A DNA stretch of 32,000 nt. Origin: an uncultured Nitrososphaerota archaeon (GTDB lineage: Archaea > Korarchaeota > Korarchaeia > Korarchaeales > Korarchaeaceae). A program made the translations under genes and the position numbers. Shown here in pieces: positions 20,038 to 31,987 of this stretch. The notes under the pieces were generated by a model that worked only from the letters and a program-made list of their open reading frames with translations, had not been told where the DNA came from and searched no databases. Each line of letters begins with the position of its first letter. Within the stretch, counting starts at the first letter, position 1. The stretch lies in contig CAYZRF010000004.1 in NCBI GenBank assembly GCA_964480775.1, positions 56,816 to 88,815 on the forward strand. The letters run 5' to 3'.

Positions 20038-21082
20038 TTTCCTCCCATAAGACCTCTGCAGGGTCCTCACAGGAGGATAAGAAAGATGACGCTTTCTTCT
20101 TAAGATAATCTCTCTCGTTCTCATCTTCCAAGTAACGTAATACTAGGGCAACGACGTCCTCGGGATCTGTCAGCTTAACCACGAGACCCTCATCTATTAG
20201 AAGCTGGGTGACGCAAGGTTCTTTATTTCCCGGGAACATTGAAACTGATGGAACACCAAGCAGGGCTGCCTCCCTTGTCATGGTACCACTAGCTCCTATG
20301 AACGCAATGGCCCTACTCATAAGAGGTAAGGAATCCATTGGATCCTTGATCAATATTAGTTGTTCTCCCAACTTCTCACTTAGCATGGGAAGATCTCTTC
20401 CCCTTGGGAAGAGGTATATCTTCAACCTTTGAATTCTTTTCGACAATGTTACGAGAGCTTTCTCAAATGAATAGGTGTTCGTCTTATTGTATAGGTAGGA
20501 TGCTCCAACTGGGGCTGGTCTAGCAACGATGTATGGCTCTTCTGTATTCCTAATTTCGGTCTTTTGAGATCTTTCAAAAAAATCTAGGATGTGTGCAACT
20601 TCCGTTACCCCCTTAAATCGCCTTATTCTGTCAAGAGCCCCAGTACTCTTCAGAACTTCTTCTGGAAAGACCTCGGGCACCACTACAGTCTGACTTAAAG
20701 GAAAGATCAGTTTGCTAACGTGAAAACTCAAATCGTTGTCATTCAAGTTCACGGATGGGATGCCGAGACCGAAGGACACTCTTGCCAACTCGGGTGACGC
20801 TTTAGATGAGGCAACATCCGGGGAAAACTCAGCTACAATATTTGCTAGTAAGGAAACTCTCTCTAAATGTTTCAAAAGTTTTTCGGCCAAAGAAATGCCA
20901 TGAGAACCAACAACTCTTATTTTATCTGAATATTCCCGAAGAAAAAGGTTTATAAGCCCAGGAAGGGCGTCTAACCGCCTACAACTTATTAAAAGATCTC
21001 TTATCTCACTTTTATGCCTTCGCAATAGTCTCAAAAAGAGTCTTATGTGTGGAAGATTGACTAAATCAATCCAAAGTCTCAT
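20012..21082 (-). CDS. DUF354-family protein (GT-B-like, predicted glycosyltransferase/epimerase fold)
   Basis: 356 aa. N-terminal MRLWIDLVNLPHIRLF matches the DUF354 hallmark (IWIDI.N.PH..FF). The C-terminal GASGTMTREAALLGVPSVS is typical of a GT-B nucleotide-sugar binding half. Confidence 0.65.
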   Translation of the reverse strand: MRLWIDLVNLPHIRLFLRLLRRHKSEIRDLLISCRRLDALPGLINLFLREYSDKIRVVGSHGISLAEKLLKHLERVSLLANIVAEFSPDVASSKASPELARVSFGLGIPSVNLNDNDLSFHVSKLIFPLSQTVVVPEVFPEEVLKSTGALDRIRRFKGVTEVAHILDFFERSQKTEIRNTEEPYIVARPAPVGASYLYNKTNTYSFEKALVTLSKRIQRLKIYLFPRGRDLPMLSEKLGEQLILIKDPMDSLPLMSRAIAFIGASGTMTREAALLGVPSVSMFPGNKEPCVTQLLIDEGLVVKLTDPEDVVALVLRYLEDENERDYLKKKASSFLSSCEDPAEVLWEEIRRLSSYS

Positions 21083-21103
21083 CCCTCACACCAAAATGAA
21101 TGA

Positions 21104-21232
21104 TGGGCCCGCCGGGACTTGAACCCGGGACCTCCGGCTTTCTTAGATTGTCCGGAGCGCAACCATATAAGGCTTACGCGTTGGCTCTCGAGAGCCGAAC
21201 TCGGCGCTCCATCCAGGCTGAGCTACGGGCCC
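21104..21232 (-). tRNA. tRNA with anticodon UAU (tRNA-Ile, AUA decoder) carrying two BHB introns
   Basis: The minus strand reads GGGCCCGTAGCTCAGCCTGGATGGAGCGCCG [28-nt intron, 21174-21201] GCCTTATA [26-nt intron, 21140-21165] AGCCGGAGGTCCCGGGTTCAAGTCCCGGCGGGCCCA. The spliced 75-nt product folds as a clean cloverleaf with anticodon arm CCGGC-CTTATAA-GCCGG. The anticodon TAT lies at 21169-21167. Both introns sit in 3-nt bulge / 4-bp helix / 3-nt bulge motifs that I folded by hand. Confidence 0.8.
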
Positions 21233-21294
21233 ACCTTCTTCTGATGCCATGTGCTATATTAAAAGTTTCCATACCAATGATCTTTAGAGCAACA

Positions 21295-21795
21295 ATGTCT
21301 CCCTCTTATGGACCTGCAGTGAGAGTTAGAATAGCAGATATACTCAATGGAGAGTTTGAAGAGGCTACTTTGGATGCAACAAGGTTCCTGAGACTGCCTC
21401 CTTTGTTGGGAATTTCAAGCTCTGTGAGCAGGGTGAGAATCTTAGGGGTAGTCACCTACACCATGATAAGCGATGACAGGAGATATGGCAAAGTAGTTGT
21501 AGAGGATGGAACTGGCGGAATATCTTTGAGAGTATGGGAGGAGGATGTCGATCTGATCATAGACCCCAAAACCGGCGATCCATATGAAGCAGGCACAATT
21601 CTCGACGTAATTGCGAGGGTTAGGGCTTATAAGGGGGAGAAATACCTCTATCCTGTTCTGATCGTAAGGCTTGATGACCCTAACTGGCTAATAGTTAACA
21701 ATCTAGAATTGCTGAGACGCCGTTTAAAGCTCATAATAACATCTCTAAGATCTTCTTCTGGGAAATCTAAAGTTTTAGAGTCAGATGAGGGCTAA
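21295..21795 (+). CDS. OB-fold nucleic-acid-binding protein (RPA32/Stn1-like small ssDNA-binding subunit candidate)
   Basis: VSRVRILGVVTYTMISDDRRYGKVVVEDGTGGISLRVWEED...ILDVIARVRAYKGEKYLYPVLIV is a typical anticodon-binding-type OB barrel. The track ORF start (21100) lies antisense inside the tRNA. I place the start at ATG 21295 (alternative 21277), downstream of the TATA-like TATATTAA at 21254-21261. Confidence 0.6.
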   Translation: MSPSYGPAVRVRIADILNGEFEEATLDATRFLRLPPLLGISSSVSRVRILGVVTYTMISDDRRYGKVVVEDGTGGISLRVWEEDVDLIIDPKTGDPYEAGTILDVIARVRAYKGEKYLYPVLIVRLDDPNWLIVNNLELLRRRLKLIITSLRSSSGKSKVLESDEG

Positions 21796-27059: not shown

Positions 27060-27181
27060 GCGGGGGTAGCCAAGCCAGGTCCAAATCTTCAAGGTTTCCC
27101 TCCTAGGGATGGCCAAAGGCGCTCGGTTCAGGGCCGAGTGGGCGTAGGCCCGCGCGGGTTCAAATCCCGCCCCCCGCACCA
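27060..27181 (+). tRNA. tRNA-Leu (CAG), class II, with an about 33-nt non-canonical intron in the D-loop; CCA encoded
   Basis: Acceptor GCGGGGG/CCCCCGC, anticodon arm CTCGG-TTCAGGG-CCGAG (CAG at 27129-27131), long variable arm TGGGCGTAGGCCCGC and T-arm GCGGG-TTCAAAT-CCCGC. The D-region AAGCCAGGTCCA...AGGC contains 33 extra nt. My best BHB-like fold has the 4-bp helix 27078-27081/27111-27114 flanked by 3-nt bulges, which places the intron at 27084-27116. Confidence 0.8.
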
Positions 27182-27524: not shown

Positions 27525-27840
27525 CGGGCCCGGCGGGACTTGAACCCGCGACCCCCGGCTCCGCAGGCCGGTGCTCTAATCCTCCTGAGCTACGGGCCCT
27601 AGTATTTCTAACACTTCCACCATTACTTAAAGTGTTCTCATGTTGTTCTCTAACGTCATGCTTAGTATTACCTTCTAATCTACTTATCCAATCTTCTAAT
27701 GCTCTTGTTAATACGGTACTTAATGATAGTCCATAATACTTGGCTTTATCATGTAGTCTTTTAGGAATAACAACTGTTGTTCTAATAGTAGGCTCCTCAT
27801 TAAACAACTCTTTTCTGCCTTTCTTAGTTCTCTTAACCAT
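27478..27840 (-). CDS. Int(N): N-terminal fragment of the split SSV-type integrase (RHH-like N-terminus), reading across attL into antisense tRNA sequence
   Basis: ATG at 27840 gives MVKRTKKGRKELFNEEPTIRTTVVIPKRLHDKAKYYGLSLSTVLTRALEDWISRLEG...NTRARSSGGLEHRPA. It then continues as antisense-tRNA read-through (EPGVAGSSPAGP...) to the stop at 27478. The track ORF begins further upstream at 27927. Confidence 0.7.
   Translation of the reverse strand: MVKRTKKGRKELFNEEPTIRTTVVIPKRLHDKAKYYGLSLSTVLTRALEDWISRLEGNTKHDVREQHENTLSNGGSVRNTRARSSGGLEHRPAEPGVAGSSPAGPAPVSFMPKKQLNIVK
27525..27599 (-). tRNA. tRNA-Arg (GCG); its 5' half is the attachment site of the integrated element
   Basis: The minus strand reads GGGCCCG-TA-GCTC-AGGAGGATTA-GAGC-A-CCGGC-CTGCGGA-GCCGG-GGGTC-GCGGG-TTCAAGT-CCCGC-CGGGCCC-G. 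Positions 27560-27599 are repeated at 31946-31985. Confidence 0.9.
27560..27601. repeat. attL (42 bp; tRNA-Arg nucleotides 1 to about 40 plus 2 upstream nt)
   Basis: TCCGCAGGCCGGTGCTCTAATCCTCCTGAGCTACGGGCCCTA is identical to 31946-31987. Confidence 0.9.
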
Positions 27841-28052
27841 ACTAATACACCTTAGACGTAAGTATGATCTTGAATGTATTAAATGTATTTTGATGCTATT
27901 GTATGATATAATGTATCGTGAAAACATGATTTTACGACATAGTATGTAATTTGCTCTAACATCATGGTCTTTACTTGATTTAATGATACATAGTTCATAA
28001 ATGAATATTCCAATATATATGAAGGTATTCAGTATAGGAAAAATGAGTAGTA

Positions 28053-28062
28053 TTTATATATA
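28053..28062 (+). promoter_or_regulatory. TATA-like box for the element ORF at 28090
   Basis: TTTATATATA lies 28-37 nt upstream of ATG 28090, in the divergent region between Int(N) and the 195-aa ORF. Confidence 0.4.
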
Positions 28063-28089
28063 GGTATACGAAATTTAATATCGAACATT

Positions 28090-28677
28090 ATGTCTAACTT
28101 GAATATTCAAGTTGAATATGAATATGTACCAAGAGCTAGTAGAAAGAAGTTACCATACACAATGAAGCACACAATTAGACTAGATAGAGAGACACTTAAG
28201 GTATTGAAGGTTCTAAGAGAGAAGTTAGGTCTACGTGATTATAGGTCTGTTATTAACTATCTAATCTTAACTGATAATGAGGTGGTAAAGAAACTTCTTT
28301 CATCAATTGATGATCCATATCAGAAACTTAAGATCTTAAGAGCTAAGAAAGTAATTGATGATCCAACTACATTAGCACTTATTGAACTACACAGTAAGAG
28401 GTCTGATAAGAAGAGACATGAACATGAGATTATAGCTGACACTAGTACACAAATAGAGAAAGTAAAGAGACTTAGAGGTAAGGAATTATATGATAGACTT
28501 CAAGAGTTGAAGGAACAAGATCAATTAATGAAAGAGAGACTAAGGAATGAGAGACTAAGACAAGATCAAATAGTTAATCTAATGATAGAATATGGTATAT
28601 CAGAGTATGATGCTAAGAGAATACTAGAACTATCTGAGACTGAGAGAAAGAAGGTTCTAACTAAACTCAAACACTAG
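28090..28677 (+). CDS. Element ORF, 195 aa: possible RHH-like N-terminal DNA-binding segment plus a highly charged coiled-coil tail
   Basis: HTIRLDRETLKVLKVLREKLGLRDYRSVINYLIL fits a beta-strand/helix/helix pattern. The C-terminal half is K/E/R-rich (KELYDRLQELKEQDQLMKERLRNERLRQDQ). No family recognised. Confidence 0.5.
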   Translation: MSNLNIQVEYEYVPRASRKKLPYTMKHTIRLDRETLKVLKVLREKLGLRDYRSVINYLILTDNEVVKKLLSSIDDPYQKLKILRAKKVIDDPTTLALIELHSKRSDKKRHEHEIIADTSTQIEKVKRLRGKELYDRLQELKEQDQLMKERLRNERLRQDQIVNLMIEYGISEYDAKRILELSETERKKVLTKLKH

Positions 28678-28707
28678 ATAAAAAAGAGAGAATAGAGGTG
28701 GTGCAAT

Positions 28708-28731
28708 ATATATAGTAGATCTCTACTATAT
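28708..28731. repeat. 24-bp palindrome TATATAGTAGA-TC-TCTACTATATA in an element intergenic region
   Basis: 11-bp perfect inverted arms with a 2-nt spacer. The half-site TCTACTATAT recurs at 28769-28778. Confidence 0.7.
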
Positions 28732-28871
28732 AAGACTAACTCAATCTACAATGACCTATATTATACTATTCTACTATATCTAGTAAGTCTATATTATATA
28801 TGTCTATCTCTAGTAAAAGATCAGACCACCGCACTCTTAGCAAAATTAAGATCTAATAGAGGTGGTACTGC

Positions 28872-29540
28872 TTGACATCAAAGCCATTTTACTATAAGAC
28901 TAAAAACAACATAGTGTTCTATTCTGTTTACTTTAGTGACCTCAAATACAAAGAAGTTTATGAATACCTTCAAACAGTGCTTTGGAGTCTTAACATAGAT
29001 GAGATACAGAAGAGCATAATGGATGATGCATTGACTGAAATACATAGAGACAGAAGAAGAAACAAACCACTACCTATTAACGCAGATCAAGGTTACTTCT
29101 TTGAAGCAGTAGTAAAAGCAGGAACACAATACCAATATATGTACAAATCTCATTATAGTGGAATAAAGTGGTATGGAGATCATGGAATACGTGCATGGTA
29201 TGGCCATAAAGGATCTGACCTAATATTATATGTCGATGACAGACCTCTAACTATTGAATGTAAGTTCTTCTTAGATTCTACATACTATAATCATATTCAC
29301 ATGAAGAATATTCTATCTTCTGACATCTTCATTACAACTGAATTATTAAAACCAAGAGATCTCATTAAGGCTAGAGTATCTGTAATGGAATGTGGTAAGC
29401 CTAAGTCTAAAGACCTTTATGACATATTGATGTGGGTAGAAACTACTTTATCTAATCACATGACTCATGAACTAGATGATATACTTAGATCAGCAATATT
29501 GAGAAAATATCCTGATAGAATAACCTTAGTAAATGACTAA
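28872..29540 (+). CDS. Element ORF, 222 aa: hypothetical, possible PD-(D/E)xK nuclease-fold signature
   Basis: TTG start preceded by the SD-like GAGGTGGT. The pattern is E (FFEAVVK), then about 40 aa, then GSDLILYVDDRPLTIECKF (D...E-x-K). This is a motif-level guess only. Confidence 0.45.
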   Translation: MTSKPFYYKTKNNIVFYSVYFSDLKYKEVYEYLQTVLWSLNIDEIQKSIMDDALTEIHRDRRRNKPLPINADQGYFFEAVVKAGTQYQYMYKSHYSGIKWYGDHGIRAWYGHKGSDLILYVDDRPLTIECKFFLDSTYYNHIHMKNILSSDIFITTELLKPRDLIKARVSVMECGKPKSKDLYDILMWVETTLSNHMTHELDDILRSAILRKYPDRITLVND

Positions 29541-29691
29541 CTGAAGTTATTACAACTTTCAAAAAGCACACAAATAACATCCTTATTAGACGACTATAAC
29601 TACAATCGTATTCCAAATAACTAGAGAAAAATATTTACTAAACAAGAGTATAGAGGAAATCCCCAAAGGGTGCAATTTTCAAGACTGTTGA

Positions 29692-29735
29692 AAATACAAA
29701 GTACAAATACTACAAATACAAAGAACAAATGAGCA
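29692..29735. repeat. Two tandem about 22-nt units rich in ACAAAT in the convergent intergenic region of the element
   Basis: AAATACAAAGTACAAATACTAC and AAATACAAAGAACAAATGAGCA match at 16 of 22 positions. The inverted copy TTGTATTTGT lies at 29799-29808. Confidence 0.6.
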
Positions 29736-29875
29736 AACTACATACAACATGATATTTGATCCAACATAGTAGACTCATCATATTAGCTACTCAGTATATT
29801 GTATTTGTTGAATGTTGAAGTTAATCCACGCTATATTATGATTAAAAATAACTCAAATGTATTCCAAGTTAACTT

Positions 29876-31024
29876 CTATTTTCTAATTTTGTTGAGTACA
29901 TATTTGATAAAGTTCTTTACAATGAAAATAATCATGGCAGACATCAATGATGCAAAGATTTTTGCAAAGATGTCTTCGATATAGAATGCAATTTTTTCTT
30001 TAAGATAATGAAGAATGAACGGAAATGCAAGGACTCCTACTAAAATTGATATAAAGATTTCAGGCTTAGCAATATATTGTAACGTTTTAAGAAACCTTAT
30101 TTTATTCTTTTGATGCCAAACTATTGGGGTTGTATGCTCTAATGCAAACATTTTGAGAGCGTCAAAATCATTACCTTCGTGATTTCTTAATTCACTTACA
30201 TAATACCTTAAATTTGTAGTTAGCATTTCCATCAATTCTTCACTATATTTAATTCGATCTATTTCATTAGGATTCTGAGAGTAGATCATTATTTTCAAAA
30301 TAGTGAAGGCATCTTTTTGAATAAGTTGAGCCGCAACTCTTTCTTCATATCTTCTGAAAACTACGAATTGCACTCCATCGTTAGTTAATTCTTTCATTTT
30401 TTCAAAACCTAAAACATTCATAATTTCCCCAAAGTTTCTATAAAGACTGTTAAGATCTGTCATGACTTTAAAAACAACTTTGTATGGCTCTTCGCGAATT
30501 GGAATACCTATTATTCTTTTAGATATGGCTGTTGATAACCAATACCCTATTAGACCGGGAAGAAAATAGTAAAACGAAACTACAATGTAGTAGAGCAAAT
30601 TCCACGTTCTATAGTACAAAATGAAATAAAATAGAAGTGATGAGATTATAGAAAAAGAAGCACAATATTTAGTATAAATTAGCGTCTCATATACAAGAGA
30701 AAGCAAAGAACCTAAAGGTACCGTTAATGTTAAAAAAAGAACTCCTATTAATAGCAAAAATTTTGCATAGAACTCTAAGGATTCAAAGTAGAAGGTTTCT
30801 CCTAGTTTTGTATAGAGAATATAAGCTGAATTACTTAGAATAAGACCAACAGCAATTGAGGTAGCTAAAGTAAATAAGCTTTTTTGGATGTTTGAATGCT
30901 CTTCTCTTACATATACGTGTTGGAACAAATCAGGATAATTTTGGAGTAATTCTATGAATGAAGATATGTCTTTTCTCTCTCTTGCTTCTTTGAGTTTCTT
31001 CCTTATTTCTACCTTATCAGGCAT
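29876..31024 (-). CDS. Element ORF, 382 aa: polytopic membrane protein with a central soluble domain, hypothetical
   Basis: A charged N-terminus is followed by about 4 hydrophobic helices (aa about 50-170), a soluble region (about 175-320) and 2 C-terminal helices. It lies 65 nt downstream of the integrase stop on the same strand. No family recognised. Confidence 0.55.
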   Translation of the reverse strand: MPDKVEIRKKLKEARERKDISSFIELLQNYPDLFQHVYVREEHSNIQKSLFTLATSIAVGLILSNSAYILYTKLGETFYFESLEFYAKFLLLIGVLFLTLTVPLGSLLSLVYETLIYTKYCASFSIISSLLFYFILYYRTWNLLYYIVVSFYYFLPGLIGYWLSTAISKRIIGIPIREEPYKVVFKVMTDLNSLYRNFGEIMNVLGFEKMKELTNDGVQFVVFRRYEERVAAQLIQKDAFTILKIMIYSQNPNEIDRIKYSEELMEMLTTNLRYYVSELRNHEGNDFDALKMFALEHTTPIVWHQKNKIRFLKTLQYIAKPEIFISILVGVLAFPFILHYLKEKIAFYIEDIFAKIFASLMSAMIIFIVKNFIKYVLNKIRK

Positions 31025-31089
31025 CTCTTAACTAACTTTTTCTTAAAGATTTTTTGATATAAAAGCATCTTTATGCTTGCGTAAGAAAC

Positions 31090-31926
31090 TCAAGTTAGTA
31101 CTTTAGGATTAGCTCTTTGATATATTTCTCTTAGAACATCTATTGAATAATCAGCATAGTGTCTAGCAATAACGCCTTTAGGTATTCTACCACAGAAGGC
31201 ATCTATGTAATGTGATGGTACTCCTTTCTTAGCTAACTCTACATTAAACCATAACCTACAAGTCTTCAATGTTATGTTAAGACCAGTCTTCTTTATAGCC
31301 TTATGAAATATGTATGAGTCTTTACCACATGAATATGGAAATAGTCTATTAGACCTAGTCTTTCTAGTTCTCAGATATTTCTTTAGCACATGTAAAGCTT
31401 CATCATTACAGAAAGTTATGAATGAATGTTTGGTTCTAGATCCATCATAGCACTTAGGAATGATAAGACCAGTATCTACGTCTATATCATCTACTGTAAG
31501 ACTCAATAGCTCTTTCTTTCTTAGTCCACTAGTACAAGCAACTAGGAATAATGCTTTCTCTTTCAACGTATCCAATGCATTATAGAATGTTCTTAGTTGT
31601 TCAATACTAGGCACTCTCTTAGGTGTATATGTCTTAGGTGGATACTTGAAACCATCAAGTAAGTTTTCTCTATTCACATACCTAAAGACATGCTTTAGAC
31701 TTGCTAAGTAGTTCTTGTATGTTCCACTAGACTTAGTGTTCTTGATCGATAATAAGAACTCTCTTATATTCTCTTTACTTGCTATATATGGATTGTATTT
31801 CTCTAGAAACTTCTTAGCTACTCTAATAGTCTGAAGCATTGTTCTCTTACTAAGTTGTAAATCAACTAGTAGGTATGTCTTGAACTCATCTATATTGAAC
31901 TCATCTATACAGTCTCCATTTTGCAT
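31090..31926 (-). CDS. Int(C): catalytic C-terminal part of the SSV-type tyrosine recombinase
   Basis: 278 aa from the internal ATG. The frame stays open upstream through attR to the window end. ACTSGLRKKELLSL (catalytic Arg) and KTCRLWFNVELAKKGVPSHYIDAFCGRIPKGVIARHYADY align by eye to the SSV1 integrase blocks ALESGVRLSEIL and [39 protein letters not shown]. Confidence 0.85.
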   Translation of the reverse strand: MQNGDCIDEFNIDEFKTYLLVDLQLSKRTMLQTIRVAKKFLEKYNPYIASKENIREFLLSIKNTKSSGTYKNYLASLKHVFRYVNRENLLDGFKYPPKTYTPKRVPSIEQLRTFYNALDTLKEKALFLVACTSGLRKKELLSLTVDDIDVDTGLIIPKCYDGSRTKHSFITFCNDEALHVLKKYLRTRKTRSNRLFPYSCGKDSYIFHKAIKKTGLNITLKTCRLWFNVELAKKGVPSHYIDAFCGRIPKGVIARHYADYSIDVLREIYQRANPKVLT

Positions 31927-31945
31927 AATAACGTCTTTATTGGTA

Positions 31946-31987
31946 TCCGCAGGCCGGTGCTCTAATCCTCCTGAGCTACGGGCCCTA
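31946..31987. repeat. attR (42 bp; orphan 5' half of tRNA-Arg without the 3' half)
   Basis: Identical to 27560-27601. The sequence to its left (TTATTGGTA) is not tRNA-like, so this is not a second tRNA gene. Confidence 0.9.

What the first reader, a model, noticed from the sequence alone, without database searches (positions are those of the whole stretch)
21104..21232. Genomically encoded tRNA-Ile(UAU) interrupted by two BHB introns (29/30 and 37/38)
The 129-nt gene only folds as a tRNA after two segments are removed.

Intron 2 (26 nt, canonical 37/38 site) sits in a textbook BHB motif:
- The anticodon stem is CCGGC/GCCGG.
- A 3-nt bulge AAA follows.
- A 4-bp helix CTTA/TAAG pairs loop positions 32-35 with the intron.
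- A 3-nt bulge TAT follows.
- The inner helix is GGTTG/CAATC.

Intron 1 (28 nt) splits the anticodon stem between positions 29 and 30. It has a 4-bp helix GCGC/GCGT flanked by bulges CGA and AAG, and an inner helix GTT/AAC leading into a GGCTC/GAGCC hairpin.

Splicing yields the anticodon loop CT-TAT-AA. Most archaea read AUA with a CAU-anticodon tRNA-Ile2 modified to agmatidine by TiaS. From memory, a directly encoded UAU anticodon has been reported only for a few lineages (Nanoarchaeum, Korarchaeum). Standard single-intron tRNA scanners may miss or mis-assign this gene.
Basis: partly seen in the sequence, partly recalled or inferred. Interest (0 to 1): 0.7.

Follow-up and report, generated by a model that had tools for sequence, protein, structure and literature searches.

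The report
Korarchaeal two-intron tRNA-Ile(UAU) gene
This is a real isoleucine tRNA gene, split by two short introns, that reads the very common AUA codon directly with a UAU anticodon; this way of reading AUA is rare among archaea but already known for the group (Korarchaeota) this DNA comes from.

Summary
Window 21104-21232, minus strand, holds a 129-nt tRNA gene (Rfam tRNA model 42.3 bits against a gathering score of 29) with a 65-nt interruption of the anticodon arm. The segments are 28 nt at position 29/30 and 26 nt at 37/38.

Both splice sites sit in 3-nt bulges flanking 4-bp helices. Intron 2 is a strict bulge-helix-bulge (BHB) motif. Intron 1 is a relaxed one with no outer helix.

Homologs lie next to the same gene (DUF354) in at least seven other korarchaeal metagenome contigs from three clades. 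All keep UAU and both intron positions, although the intron sequences have diverged or been replaced. Compensatory changes occur in the T-stem and in intron 1's helices.

AUA is the second most used codon in the window and behaves as isoleucine.

Proteins at least 90% identical to two window proteins are labelled Candidatus Korarchaeota. Korarchaeum cryptofilum is already known to use tRNA-Ile(UAU) and to lack tRNA-Ile2(CAU) and TiaS, the enzyme that modifies the CAU anticodon in most archaea. This is therefore a new member of a known kind.

Absence of TiaS and tRNA-Ile2(CAU) from this genome could not be tested.

The parts
21104..21232 (-). Complete tRNA-Ile(UAU) gene, 129 nt: three exons and two introns. 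No CCA is encoded.
   Evidence: Rfam RF00005 at 42.3 bits, model positions 1-71 of 71. The spliced product is a 75-nt cloverleaf that ARAGORN calls Ile(tat).
21202..21232 (-). Exon 1, tRNA positions 1-29: acceptor 5' strand, D-arm, position 26, and the first 3 nt of the anticodon stem.
   Evidence: Nearly invariant in all homologs, with one D-loop C/T difference in clade B.
21174..21201 (-). Intron 1, 28 nt, non-canonical site 29/30. Relaxed BHB motif: inner helix GUU/AAC, hairpin GGCUC-UCGA-GAGCC, and GCGU pairing with exon GCGC.
   Evidence: The 4-bp helix is kept in clade B by a different sequence (GUGC). The inner helix shows G-C to C-G and U-A to C-G exchanges between clades.
21204..21207 (-). 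Exon strand (GCGC) of intron 1's central 4-bp helix. It overlaps the last two D-stem pairs, position 26 and position 27.
21166..21173 (-). Exon 2, 8 nt GCCUUAUA: positions 30-37, including the anticodon.
   Evidence: Invariant in all homologs.
21167..21169 (-). Anticodon UAU (positions 34-36).
21140..21165 (-). Intron 2, 26 nt, canonical site 37/38. Strict BHB motif: central helix CUUA/UAAG, bulges UA|U and AA|A, inner helix GGUUG/CAAUC. Contains the conserved block GCGCUCCGGACAA.
   Evidence: The central helix is invariant apart from one U.G in L016. The inner helix is not conserved.
21104..21139 (-). Exon 3, positions 38-73: anticodon stem 3' strand, variable loop AGGUC, T-arm, acceptor 3' strand, discriminator A73.
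   Evidence: The first two T-stem pairs switch from C-G to G-C in other homologs, which is compensatory.
21255..21264 (-). TATA-like box TTTTAATATA, 23-32 nt upstream of the tRNA's first base. This is a likely archaeal promoter. It lies in the divergent intergenic region shared with the RPA-like gene.
   Evidence: Read directly from the sequence. Similar TTTAAAAG boxes sit at the same distance in L015 and L016. Promoter function is inferred.
21093..21096 (-). T-run (TTTT) 8-11 nt after the gene's 3' end. This is a plausible archaeal termination signal. The DUF354 start codon follows at 21082.
   Evidence: Read directly from the sequence. Function is inferred.

Best explanation
This is a functional korarchaeal gene for tRNA-Ile(UAU), the tRNA that decodes the isoleucine codon AUA, and it is interrupted by two protein-spliced introns.

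The proposed pathway is as follows:
1. Transcription starts about 25 nt downstream of a TATA-like box and gives a precursor of about 129 nt plus leader and trailer.
2. The archaeal splicing endonuclease (EndA) cuts after the second base of each 3-nt bulge. Published work on Korarchaeum describes an alpha2-type enzyme carrying the crenarchaeal 'specific loop' that allows relaxed motifs.
3. The cuts fall at CG|A and AA|G for the 28-nt intron at 29/30, and at UA|U and AA|A for the 26-nt intron at 37/38.
4. The RNA ligase RtcB joins the three exons and CCA is added enzymatically.
5. IleRS charges the 75-nt product, which reads AUA. AUA makes up 42 of every 1000 codons in this window.

Intron 1's central helix borrows D-stem and anticodon-stem bases. 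The two splice motifs and the full cloverleaf therefore cannot all form at once, so splicing probably involves refolding or a fixed order.

Shown here: the gene, the splice geometry, its conservation with compensatory changes, the lineage, and the use and meaning of AUA. Inferred: actual splicing, charging with isoleucine, how reading of AUG is avoided, and that this is the only AUA decoder.
For: **The gene and its splice model.**
- The Rfam tRNA model matches end to end with the insertion confined to the anticodon arm.
- The spliced product has all stems paired. It carries U8, A14, G18-G19, U33, A37, the T-loop GUUCAAGU and A73, and ARAGORN calls it Ile(tat).
- BHB geometry fits at both sites, against 0.2% of shuffled introns per site and 5e-06 for both.

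**Conservation.**
- Homologs lie immediately upstream of the DUF354 gene in L002, L003, L005/L007, L014, L015, L016 and L024. All have UAU and both intron sites.
- The first two T-stem pairs exchange C-G for G-C.
- Intron 1's central helix reads GCGU in two clades and GUGC in the third, and both pair with exon GCGC.
- Intron 1's inner helix reads GUU/AAC, GCC/GGC or CC/GG.
- Intron 2's central helix is invariant apart from one U.G.

**Codon use.**
- AUA occurs 294 times in 7013 codons, ranks second of all codons, and makes up 53% of Ile codons.
- AUA aligns with I, V and L in orthologs, as AUU and AUC do and unlike AUG.

**Lineage.**
- The window's FtsZ and topoisomerase VI-B belong to 90%-identity clusters containing proteins that NCBI labels Candidatus Korarchaeota archaeon.
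- Korarchaeum is reported to encode tRNA-Ile(UAU), to lack tRNA-Ile2(CAU) and TiaS, and to have multi-intron tRNAs (PMC8450103, PMC3919564, PMC6000648, PMC3239211).
Against: - There is no RNA evidence for transcription or splicing.
- RNAfold at 37 and 80 C prefers pairings between intron 2 and the exons over either BHB: -59.3 kcal/mol against -42 to -47.
- Intron 1 lacks an outer helix and must melt two D-stem pairs.
- Intron 2's inner helix shrinks to 1-2 in-register pairs in several homologs.
- The isotype rests on the anticodon, A73 and the absence of G3:U70. The tRNA body is 91-93% identical to a korarchaeal tRNA-Ala(UGC) and 85-88% to tRNA-Ile(GAU), so body similarity is not diagnostic. 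No isotype-specific covariance model was available.
- Absence of TiaS and tRNA-Ile2(CAU) from this genome was not tested.
Confidence: 0.85

Rival explanations
1. The gene is real and spliced as proposed, but it is not the sole AUA decoder. The genome would also encode TiaS and a tRNA-Ile2(CAU), making the UAU tRNA a supplementary or redundant isoacceptor.
For: Nothing direct. Only 32 kb of the genome was visible, so absence cannot be claimed. A fourth korarchaeal clade (L022, L025, L026) carries tRNA-Ala(UGC) plus tRNA-Ile(GAU) at this locus and no UAU gene there. AUA-decoding arrangements could therefore vary within the class.
Against: Published surveys state that Korarchaeum has UAU, no CAU-type tRNA-Ile2 and no TiaS (PMC8450103, PMC3919564). 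The UAU anticodon is strictly conserved across three clades while the introns turn over, which fits an essential role. AUA is the second most frequent codon. No Pfam match to the TiaS domain appeared among the 30 window ORFs scanned, which is only a weak test.
Confidence: 0.1
2. It is a decaying tRNA pseudogene whose anticodon arm has accumulated insertions. The apparent splice motifs would be fortuitous.
For: ARAGORN default mode does not report it. The thermodynamic fold of the precursor does not show the BHB motifs.
Against: The exons are nearly invariant, with compensatory T-stem changes across clades whose neighbouring proteins are only 52-80% identical. Insertions occur only at the two exact sites, and BHB helices are preserved through sequence change. 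The chance of both motifs is about 5e-06. A promoter-like box and a T-run are in place.
Confidence: 0.02
3. A different splice pattern gives a tRNA of another isotype, for example the single-intron solutions ARAGORN proposes: Ala(CGC) for the window, and Gly, Ser, Thr, Pro or Cys for the orthologs.
For: ARAGORN in intron mode outputs such models.
Against: The calls differ for each ortholog of what is plainly one gene. They need mismatched anticodon stems and over-long variable regions, and they place no BHB motif at the junctions. Enumeration by eye found no other way to obtain a 5-bp stem next to the fixed 3' strand GCCGG. Only joining G29 to G30 recreates CCGGC.
Confidence: 0.03

Closest known systems
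tRNA-Ile(UAU), also called 'tRNA-Ile3', of Candidatus Korarchaeum cryptofilum OPF8
   Same: Same phylum-level lineage, same UAU anticodon, and an intron-containing gene. In that genome it replaces tRNA-Ile2(CAU) and TiaS (PMC8450103, PMC6000648, PMC3919564).
   Different: The K. cryptofilum gene is described with one intron (PMC6000648). Here and in three marine or hydrothermal clades there is an additional intron at 29/30. The K. cryptofilum sequence could not be retrieved for direct comparison.
pre-tRNA-Ile(UAU) of ARMAN-2 (Candidatus Micrarchaeum), and tRNA-Ile(UAU) of Nanoarchaeum equitans
   Same: Archaeal tRNA-Ile with encoded UAU in lineages lacking TiaS and tRNA-Ile2(CAU). The ARMAN-2 gene has a 25-nt canonical intron in a strict hBHBh' motif (the strict form, with outer and inner helices), which its endonuclease cleaves in vitro (PMC3239211, PMC12397907).
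   Different: Unrelated lineages, a different endonuclease architecture (epsilon2), and a single intron.
Multi-intron and non-canonical-intron tRNA genes of Thermoproteales and other archaea
   Same: Short introns at non-canonical positions in relaxed BHB motifs, several per gene, cut by endonucleases of broad specificity (PMC4033280, PMC4090602, PMC3239211).
   Different: Those are mostly crenarchaeal genes processed by (alpha-beta)2 enzymes. None of the papers read here describes this particular 29/30 + 37/38 pair in a tRNA-Ile(UAU).
Eukaryotic tRNA-Ile(UAU): yeast, with intron-dependent pseudouridines 34 and 36 made by Pus1, and Cyanidioschyzon merolae, with three introns
   Same: A UAU anticodon read from an intron-containing precursor whose intron pairs with the anticodon. 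C. merolae also has several introns in this tRNA (PMC4090602, PMC9602550).
   Different: The eukaryotic modification pathway is demonstrated. Nothing is known about position 34 in korarchaeal tRNA-Ile(UAU).
Mycoplasma mobile and Bacillus subtilis-suppressor tRNA-Ile(UAU)
   Same: A prokaryotic AUA decoder with U34 in the absence of the C34-modifying enzyme (PMC3575796, PMC3919564).
   Different: Bacterial and intron-less. U34 is shown to be unmodified there.

Membership tests
tRNA (Rfam RF00005) | Covariance-model score above the curated gathering threshold over the full model | tested here: met
   42.3 bits against 29, model positions 1-71 of 71, with a 65-nt insertion in the anticodon arm.
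tRNA (Rfam RF00005) | Cloverleaf with 7/4/5/5-bp stems, a 7-nt anticodon loop and the universal bases, after intron removal | tested here: met
   ARAGORN drawing of the 75-nt spliced sequence. All stem pairs are standard in all 9 homolog rows.
Archaeal BHB intron (EndA substrate), strict hBHBh' form | Two 3-nt bulges separated by a 4-bp helix, flanked by outer and inner helices, with splice sites after the second bulge base | tested here: met
   Intron 2: anticodon stem, AAA bulge, CUUA/UAAG, UAU bulge, GGUUG/CAAUC. The inner helix is weak in some homologs.
Archaeal BHB intron (EndA substrate), strict hBHBh' form | The same requirements applied to intron 1 (29/30) | tested here: not met
   The central helix GCGC/GCGU, both bulges and the inner helix are present, but no outer helix forms (A25 opposite C61). 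It fits the relaxed HBh' class instead.
Archaeal BHB intron (EndA substrate) | Actual cleavage by the splicing endonuclease and ligation of the exons | not testable with these tools
   Needs RNA data or an enzyme assay.
Archaeal tRNA-Ile(UAU) AUA-decoding system (Korarchaeum/Nanoarchaeum/ARMAN type) | Genomically encoded UAU anticodon in a tRNA with Ile-compatible identity (A73, A35, U36, A37, no G3:U70) | tested here: met
   Isotype-specific covariance models were not available, so the isotype rests on these features.
Archaeal tRNA-Ile(UAU) AUA-decoding system (Korarchaeum/Nanoarchaeum/ARMAN type) | Absence of tiaS and of a CAU-anticodon tRNA-Ile2 from the genome | not testable with these tools
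   Only 32 kb of this genome is visible. No TiaS-domain hit appeared among the window ORFs scanned.
Archaeal tRNA-Ile(UAU) AUA-decoding system (Korarchaeum/Nanoarchaeum/ARMAN type) | AUA is used as a sense codon for isoleucine | tested here: met
   41.9 per 1000 codons. AUA aligns with I, V and L in orthologs, not M.
Korarchaeota (class Korarchaeia) | Window proteins cluster with proteins of genomes assigned to the group | tested here: met
   FtsZ and topoisomerase VI-B fall in 90%-identity clusters with RLG49724.1, RLG54386.1, RLG46367.1 and RLG46668.1, labelled 'Candidatus Korarchaeota archaeon'. The NCBI name 'Thermoproteota archaeon' has that synonym. No rRNA or marker-gene phylogeny was done.

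The most novel reading that the evidence does not exclude
The canonical intron may be kept in tRNA-Ile(UAU) because it is needed before splicing. The intron pairs with the anticodon and carries a block conserved across korarchaeal clades: GCGCUCCG(G/U)ACAA, or GGGCUCCCCGGUACA in one clade. That block is complementary to exon sequence.

The block could act in two ways:
- It could direct an intron-dependent modification of U34 and/or U36, as yeast Pus1 does on pre-tRNA-Ile(UAU). Such a modification would stop U34 from reading AUG.
- It could enforce the order in which the two introns are removed.

Probability: 0.15. Interest if true: 0.65.

Novelty: new member of a known kind. Interest (0 to 1): 0.3.

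Why it matters
The gene shows that direct AUA reading by an encoded UAU anticodon is shared by several uncultured marine and hydrothermal clades of Korarchaeota. Until now it rested on Korarchaeum cryptofilum alone.

The gene is easy to mis-annotate. ARAGORN misses it or assigns it to seven different amino acids. Genome bins from this group could therefore wrongly appear to lack an AUA decoder.

The set of homologs is a compact natural series for studying how tRNA introns are gained, duplicated and replaced at a fixed site. It also gives candidate substrates for the unresolved question of how a U34 tRNA avoids reading AUG in archaea.

None of this changes current understanding. It extends a documented exception.

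Tried and rejected
- **ARAGORN, default mode.** It did not report the gene.
- **ARAGORN, single-intron mode.** It gave mutually inconsistent isotypes for the orthologs and was rejected as artefact.
- **Thermodynamic folding.** RNAfold on the precursor and on the half-spliced intermediates, at 37 and 80 C, did not recover the BHB motifs. It also fails to recover the cloverleaf of the mature, GC-rich tRNA. I treat it as uninformative about the protein-bound fold but record it as a caveat. RNAalifold on the four closest homologs gave the same non-BHB fold with little covariation.
- **Source assembly.** Attempts to fetch the window's source contig failed. Only a 4-kb Logan contig is indexed.
- **K. 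cryptofilum locus.** No DUF354 or NAD-kinase homolog from a contig of megabase size appeared in the hit lists. Elkins et al. 2008 is not in the library.
- **Neighbouring OB-fold gene (21295-21795).** I considered whether it is a TiaS remnant. It is a 166-aa protein with one homolog labelled 'RPA family protein', a weak sub-threshold OB-fold match and no TiaS domain, so I rejected the idea.
- **The 231-aa ORF at 21100-21795.** Its overlap with the tRNA is an artefact of upstream extension, since homologs are 166-171 aa.
- **Alternative splice schemes.** I looked for other ways to use the CCGG-containing block of intron 2 as an anticodon stem. None gives a 7-nt loop.

Full report
**1. What is in the sequence**

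The Rfam tRNA model matches the minus strand of window 21104-21232 from end to end. The score is 42.3 bits against a gathering score of 29 (E 6.7e-06). The acceptor stem, D-arm and T-arm are intact, and a 65-nt insertion sits inside the anticodon stem.

Read 5'->3' on the minus strand, the gene is:

GGGCCCGTAGCTCAGCCTGGATGGAGCGCCG / AGTTCGGCTCTCGAGAGCCAACGCGTAA / GCCTTATA / TGGTTGCGCTCCGGACAATCTAAGAA / AGCCGGAGGTCCCGGGTTCAAGTCCCGGCGGGCCCA

ARAGORN draws this as a cloverleaf with every stem paired and anticodon loop CU-UAU-AA, and calls it tRNA-Ile(tat).

The junction of intron 1 is unique. Only joining G29 to G30 restores the 5' strand CCGGC that pairs with the fixed 3' strand GCCGG.

**2. Splice-site geometry**

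For an archaeal BHB intron, each cut falls after the second base of a 3-nt bulge, and the two bulges are separated by a 4-bp helix. The splice sites are already fixed by the mature tRNA, and this geometry is met at both.

- *Intron 2 (37/38).* Positions 32-35 (CUUA) pair with UAAG. The bulges are UA|U and AA|A. The anticodon stem is the outer helix and GGUUG/CAAUC is the inner helix. This is the strict form.
- *Intron 1 (29/30).* Exon GCGC pairs with intron GCGU. These exon bases are the last two bases of the D-stem 3' strand, position 26 and position 27. The bulges are CG|A and AA|G. The inner helix GUU/AAC stacks on a GGCUC/GAGCC hairpin. There is no outer helix, so this is the relaxed form.

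Shuffled introns satisfy the test (4-bp helix plus an inner helix of at least 2 bp) in about 0.2% of trials per site. Both are satisfied in 5e-06 of 200,000 trials.

The bases used by intron 1's central helix and 5' bulge are also needed for two D-stem pairs and three anticodon-stem pairs. Both motifs and the cloverleaf therefore cannot coexist. This step of the mechanism is inferred, not shown.

**3. Caveat from folding**

RNAfold prefers another fold for the naked precursor, at -59.3 kcal/mol against -42 to -47 for the BHB models. In that fold, intron 2's GCGCUCCGG block pairs with exon GGAGCGC or with the 3' exon CCGGAG. The same program also fails to give the cloverleaf for the mature tRNA, so I give this little weight, but it is recorded.

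**4. Relatives**

The gene lies 21 nt upstream of a DUF354-family gene. Searches with that protein and with the tRNA's first 31 nt recovered homologs at the same position. These fall into three tRNA-Ile(UAU)-bearing clades and a fourth clade without it.

| Clade | Loci | Intron 1 (29/30) | Intron 2 (37/38) |
|---|---|---|---|
| A | window, L002, L003, L005/L007, L014 | 27-28 nt | 25-44 nt |
| B | L015, L016 | unrelated 15-nt sequence, CCCAAGTGGGTGCAT | 44-47 nt |
| C | L024 | two tandem 28-nt units | 28 nt |
| D | L022, L025, L026 | no UAU gene here: tRNA-Ala(UGC) + tRNA-Ile(GAU) instead | not applicable |

Every UAU-bearing homolog has the same anticodon stem and loop. The evidence for selection on structure is as follows.

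- The first two T-stem pairs exchange C-G for G-C.
- Intron 1's central-helix strand is GCGU in clades A and C and GUGC in clade B. Both pair with GCGC.
- Intron 1's inner helix is GUU/AAC, GCC/GGC or CC/GG.
- Intron 2's central helix is invariant apart from one U.G.
- Intron 2's in-register inner helix is not conserved beyond 1-2 pairs.

This pattern is what a functional, spliced tRNA gene would show. A pseudogene would not show it.

**5. Scanner behaviour**

ARAGORN in default mode omits the gene. In intron mode it calls the window gene Ala(cgc) and its orthologs Ser, Gly, Gly, Thr, Pro and Cys. According to its paper, tRNAscan-SE 2.0 predicts multiple archaeal introns (PMC8450103), but it could not be run here.

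**6. Codon context**

In 20 confident ORFs of the window (7013 codons), AUA occurs 294 times, or 41.9 per 1000. It is the second most frequent codon and makes up 53% of isoleucine codons.

In alignments with orthologs from L022, AUA faces I (65), V (39), L (34) and M (4). This profile matches AUU and AUC and differs from AUG, which faces M in 41 of 86 cases. AUA therefore means isoleucine, and its decoder is heavily used.

**7. Lineage**

- The gene content is archaeal: FtsZ, a long Hef helicase-nuclease, RadA, topoisomerase VI, aIF2-beta, aIF1A and Rio1.
- The window's FtsZ and topoisomerase VI-B fall in 90%-identity clusters with NCBI proteins labelled Candidatus Korarchaeota archaeon.
- The related genome records are 'Thermoproteota archaeon' bins from Guaymas Basin plus an isolate named Kor4. 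That NCBI name carries the synonym Candidatus Korarchaeota archaeon.

**8. Comparison with what is known**

- Surveys of cultivated and complete archaeal genomes find encoded tRNA-Ile(UAU) only in Korarchaeum cryptofilum and Nanoarchaeum equitans, which lack tRNA-Ile2(CAU) and TiaS (PMC6000648, PMC8450103, PMC3919564). ARMAN archaea are a further case (PMC3239211).
- K. cryptofilum is also noted for tRNAs with non-canonical and multiple introns, and for an alpha2 endonuclease carrying the loop that allows relaxed motifs (PMC3239211, PMC4033280).
- Its tRNA-Ile(UAU) is described with one intron (PMC6000648).

The window's gene is therefore the expected AUA decoder of its lineage, in a form with an extra intron at 29/30. 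I file it as a new member of a known kind.

The isotype rests on the anticodon, A73, A37 and G3:C70. The tRNA body is 91-93% identical to the clade D tRNA-Ala(UGC) and 85-88% identical to tRNA-Ile(GAU). These GC-rich tRNAs resemble one another too closely for body similarity to decide the isotype.

**9. What remains open**

- Whether this genome truly lacks TiaS and a CAU tRNA-Ile2 was not testable here.
- It is unknown whether and how U34 is modified.
- The order of intron removal is unknown.
- It is unexplained why a block inside intron 2 is conserved across clades when the rest of the intron is not. The block is GCGCUCCG(G/U)ACAA in clades A and C, with a GGGCUCCCCGGUACA variant in clade B.

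The last point supports a low-probability but interesting reading: an intron-dependent anticodon modification, as in yeast (PMC4090602, PMC9602550).

**10. Verdict**

Novelty is modest. Interest is 0.3.

Noticed in passing
window 27560-31987: A perfect 42-nt direct repeat bounds a stretch of about 4.4 kb. One copy (27560-27601) is the 5' half of tRNA-Arg(GCG) on the minus strand, and the other is at 31946-31987. The stretch has 31% G+C against 44% elsewhere and carries a tyrosine integrase gene (31090-31926, minus strand) plus ORFs with no Pfam match. It looks like a small element integrated into tRNA-Arg. In the relative L007, tRNA-Arg is followed by succinyl-CoA ligase genes instead.
   Followed up: partly
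window 27060-27178 (+): tRNA-Leu(CAG) with a 33-nt intron in the D-loop (gene positions 25-57). The BHB motif has central helix GGUC/GGCC, bulges CA|A and AA|A, and a 5-bp inner helix. The ortholog in L022 (2460-2545) has no intron. ARAGORN reports only the 3' part in default mode, and in intron mode miscalls it Leu(caa) here and Pro(tgg) for its L007 ortholog.
   Followed up: partly
L024:1321-1479: This tRNA-Ile(UAU) homolog carries two tandem 28-nt intron units at 29/30. Each unit has its own inner helix and a GCGU strand able to pair with exon GCGC. Either one 56-nt excision or two successive excisions would give the same product. This is a possible snapshot of intron duplication at a fixed site. 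Rfam at gathering threshold misses this gene and the one in L015.
   Followed up: partly
L022:19348-19609, L025:1235-1473, L026:1216-1477: In a fourth korarchaeal clade, the slot upstream of DUF354 holds tRNA-Ala(UGC) and tRNA-Ile(GAU), each with a canonical intron, instead of tRNA-Ile(UAU). The UAU tRNA shares its anticodon stem and its intron 3' end (YAAGAA|A) with that tRNA-Ala and is 91-93% identical to it. This hints at origin by anticodon change of a neighbouring gene, but these GC-rich tRNAs are all alike.
   Followed up: partly
window 21140-21165 (intron 2) and homologs: The block GCGCUCCGGACAA inside intron 2 is conserved across clades while the surrounding intron is not. It is complementary to exon GGAGCGC and to the 3' exon CCGGAG, and it dominates the predicted minimum-energy folds. 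Its function is unknown.
   Followed up: partly
L005:5832-5978 and L007:9793-9939: Intron 2 is 44 nt in these loci because of an 18-nt insertion. The insertion resembles a partial duplication of the 3' splice junction (TCTAGGGAAGCC against TCTAAGAAAGCC).
   Followed up: no
window 21100-21795 (+): The 231-aa ORF listed here overlaps the tRNA on the opposite strand. The real gene starts at 21295 and encodes a 166-aa protein with a weak, sub-threshold OB-fold match; one homolog carries the source label 'RPA family protein', and homologs are 166-171 aa. It is transcribed divergently from the tRNA and may share the AT-rich TATA region with it.
   Followed up: yes
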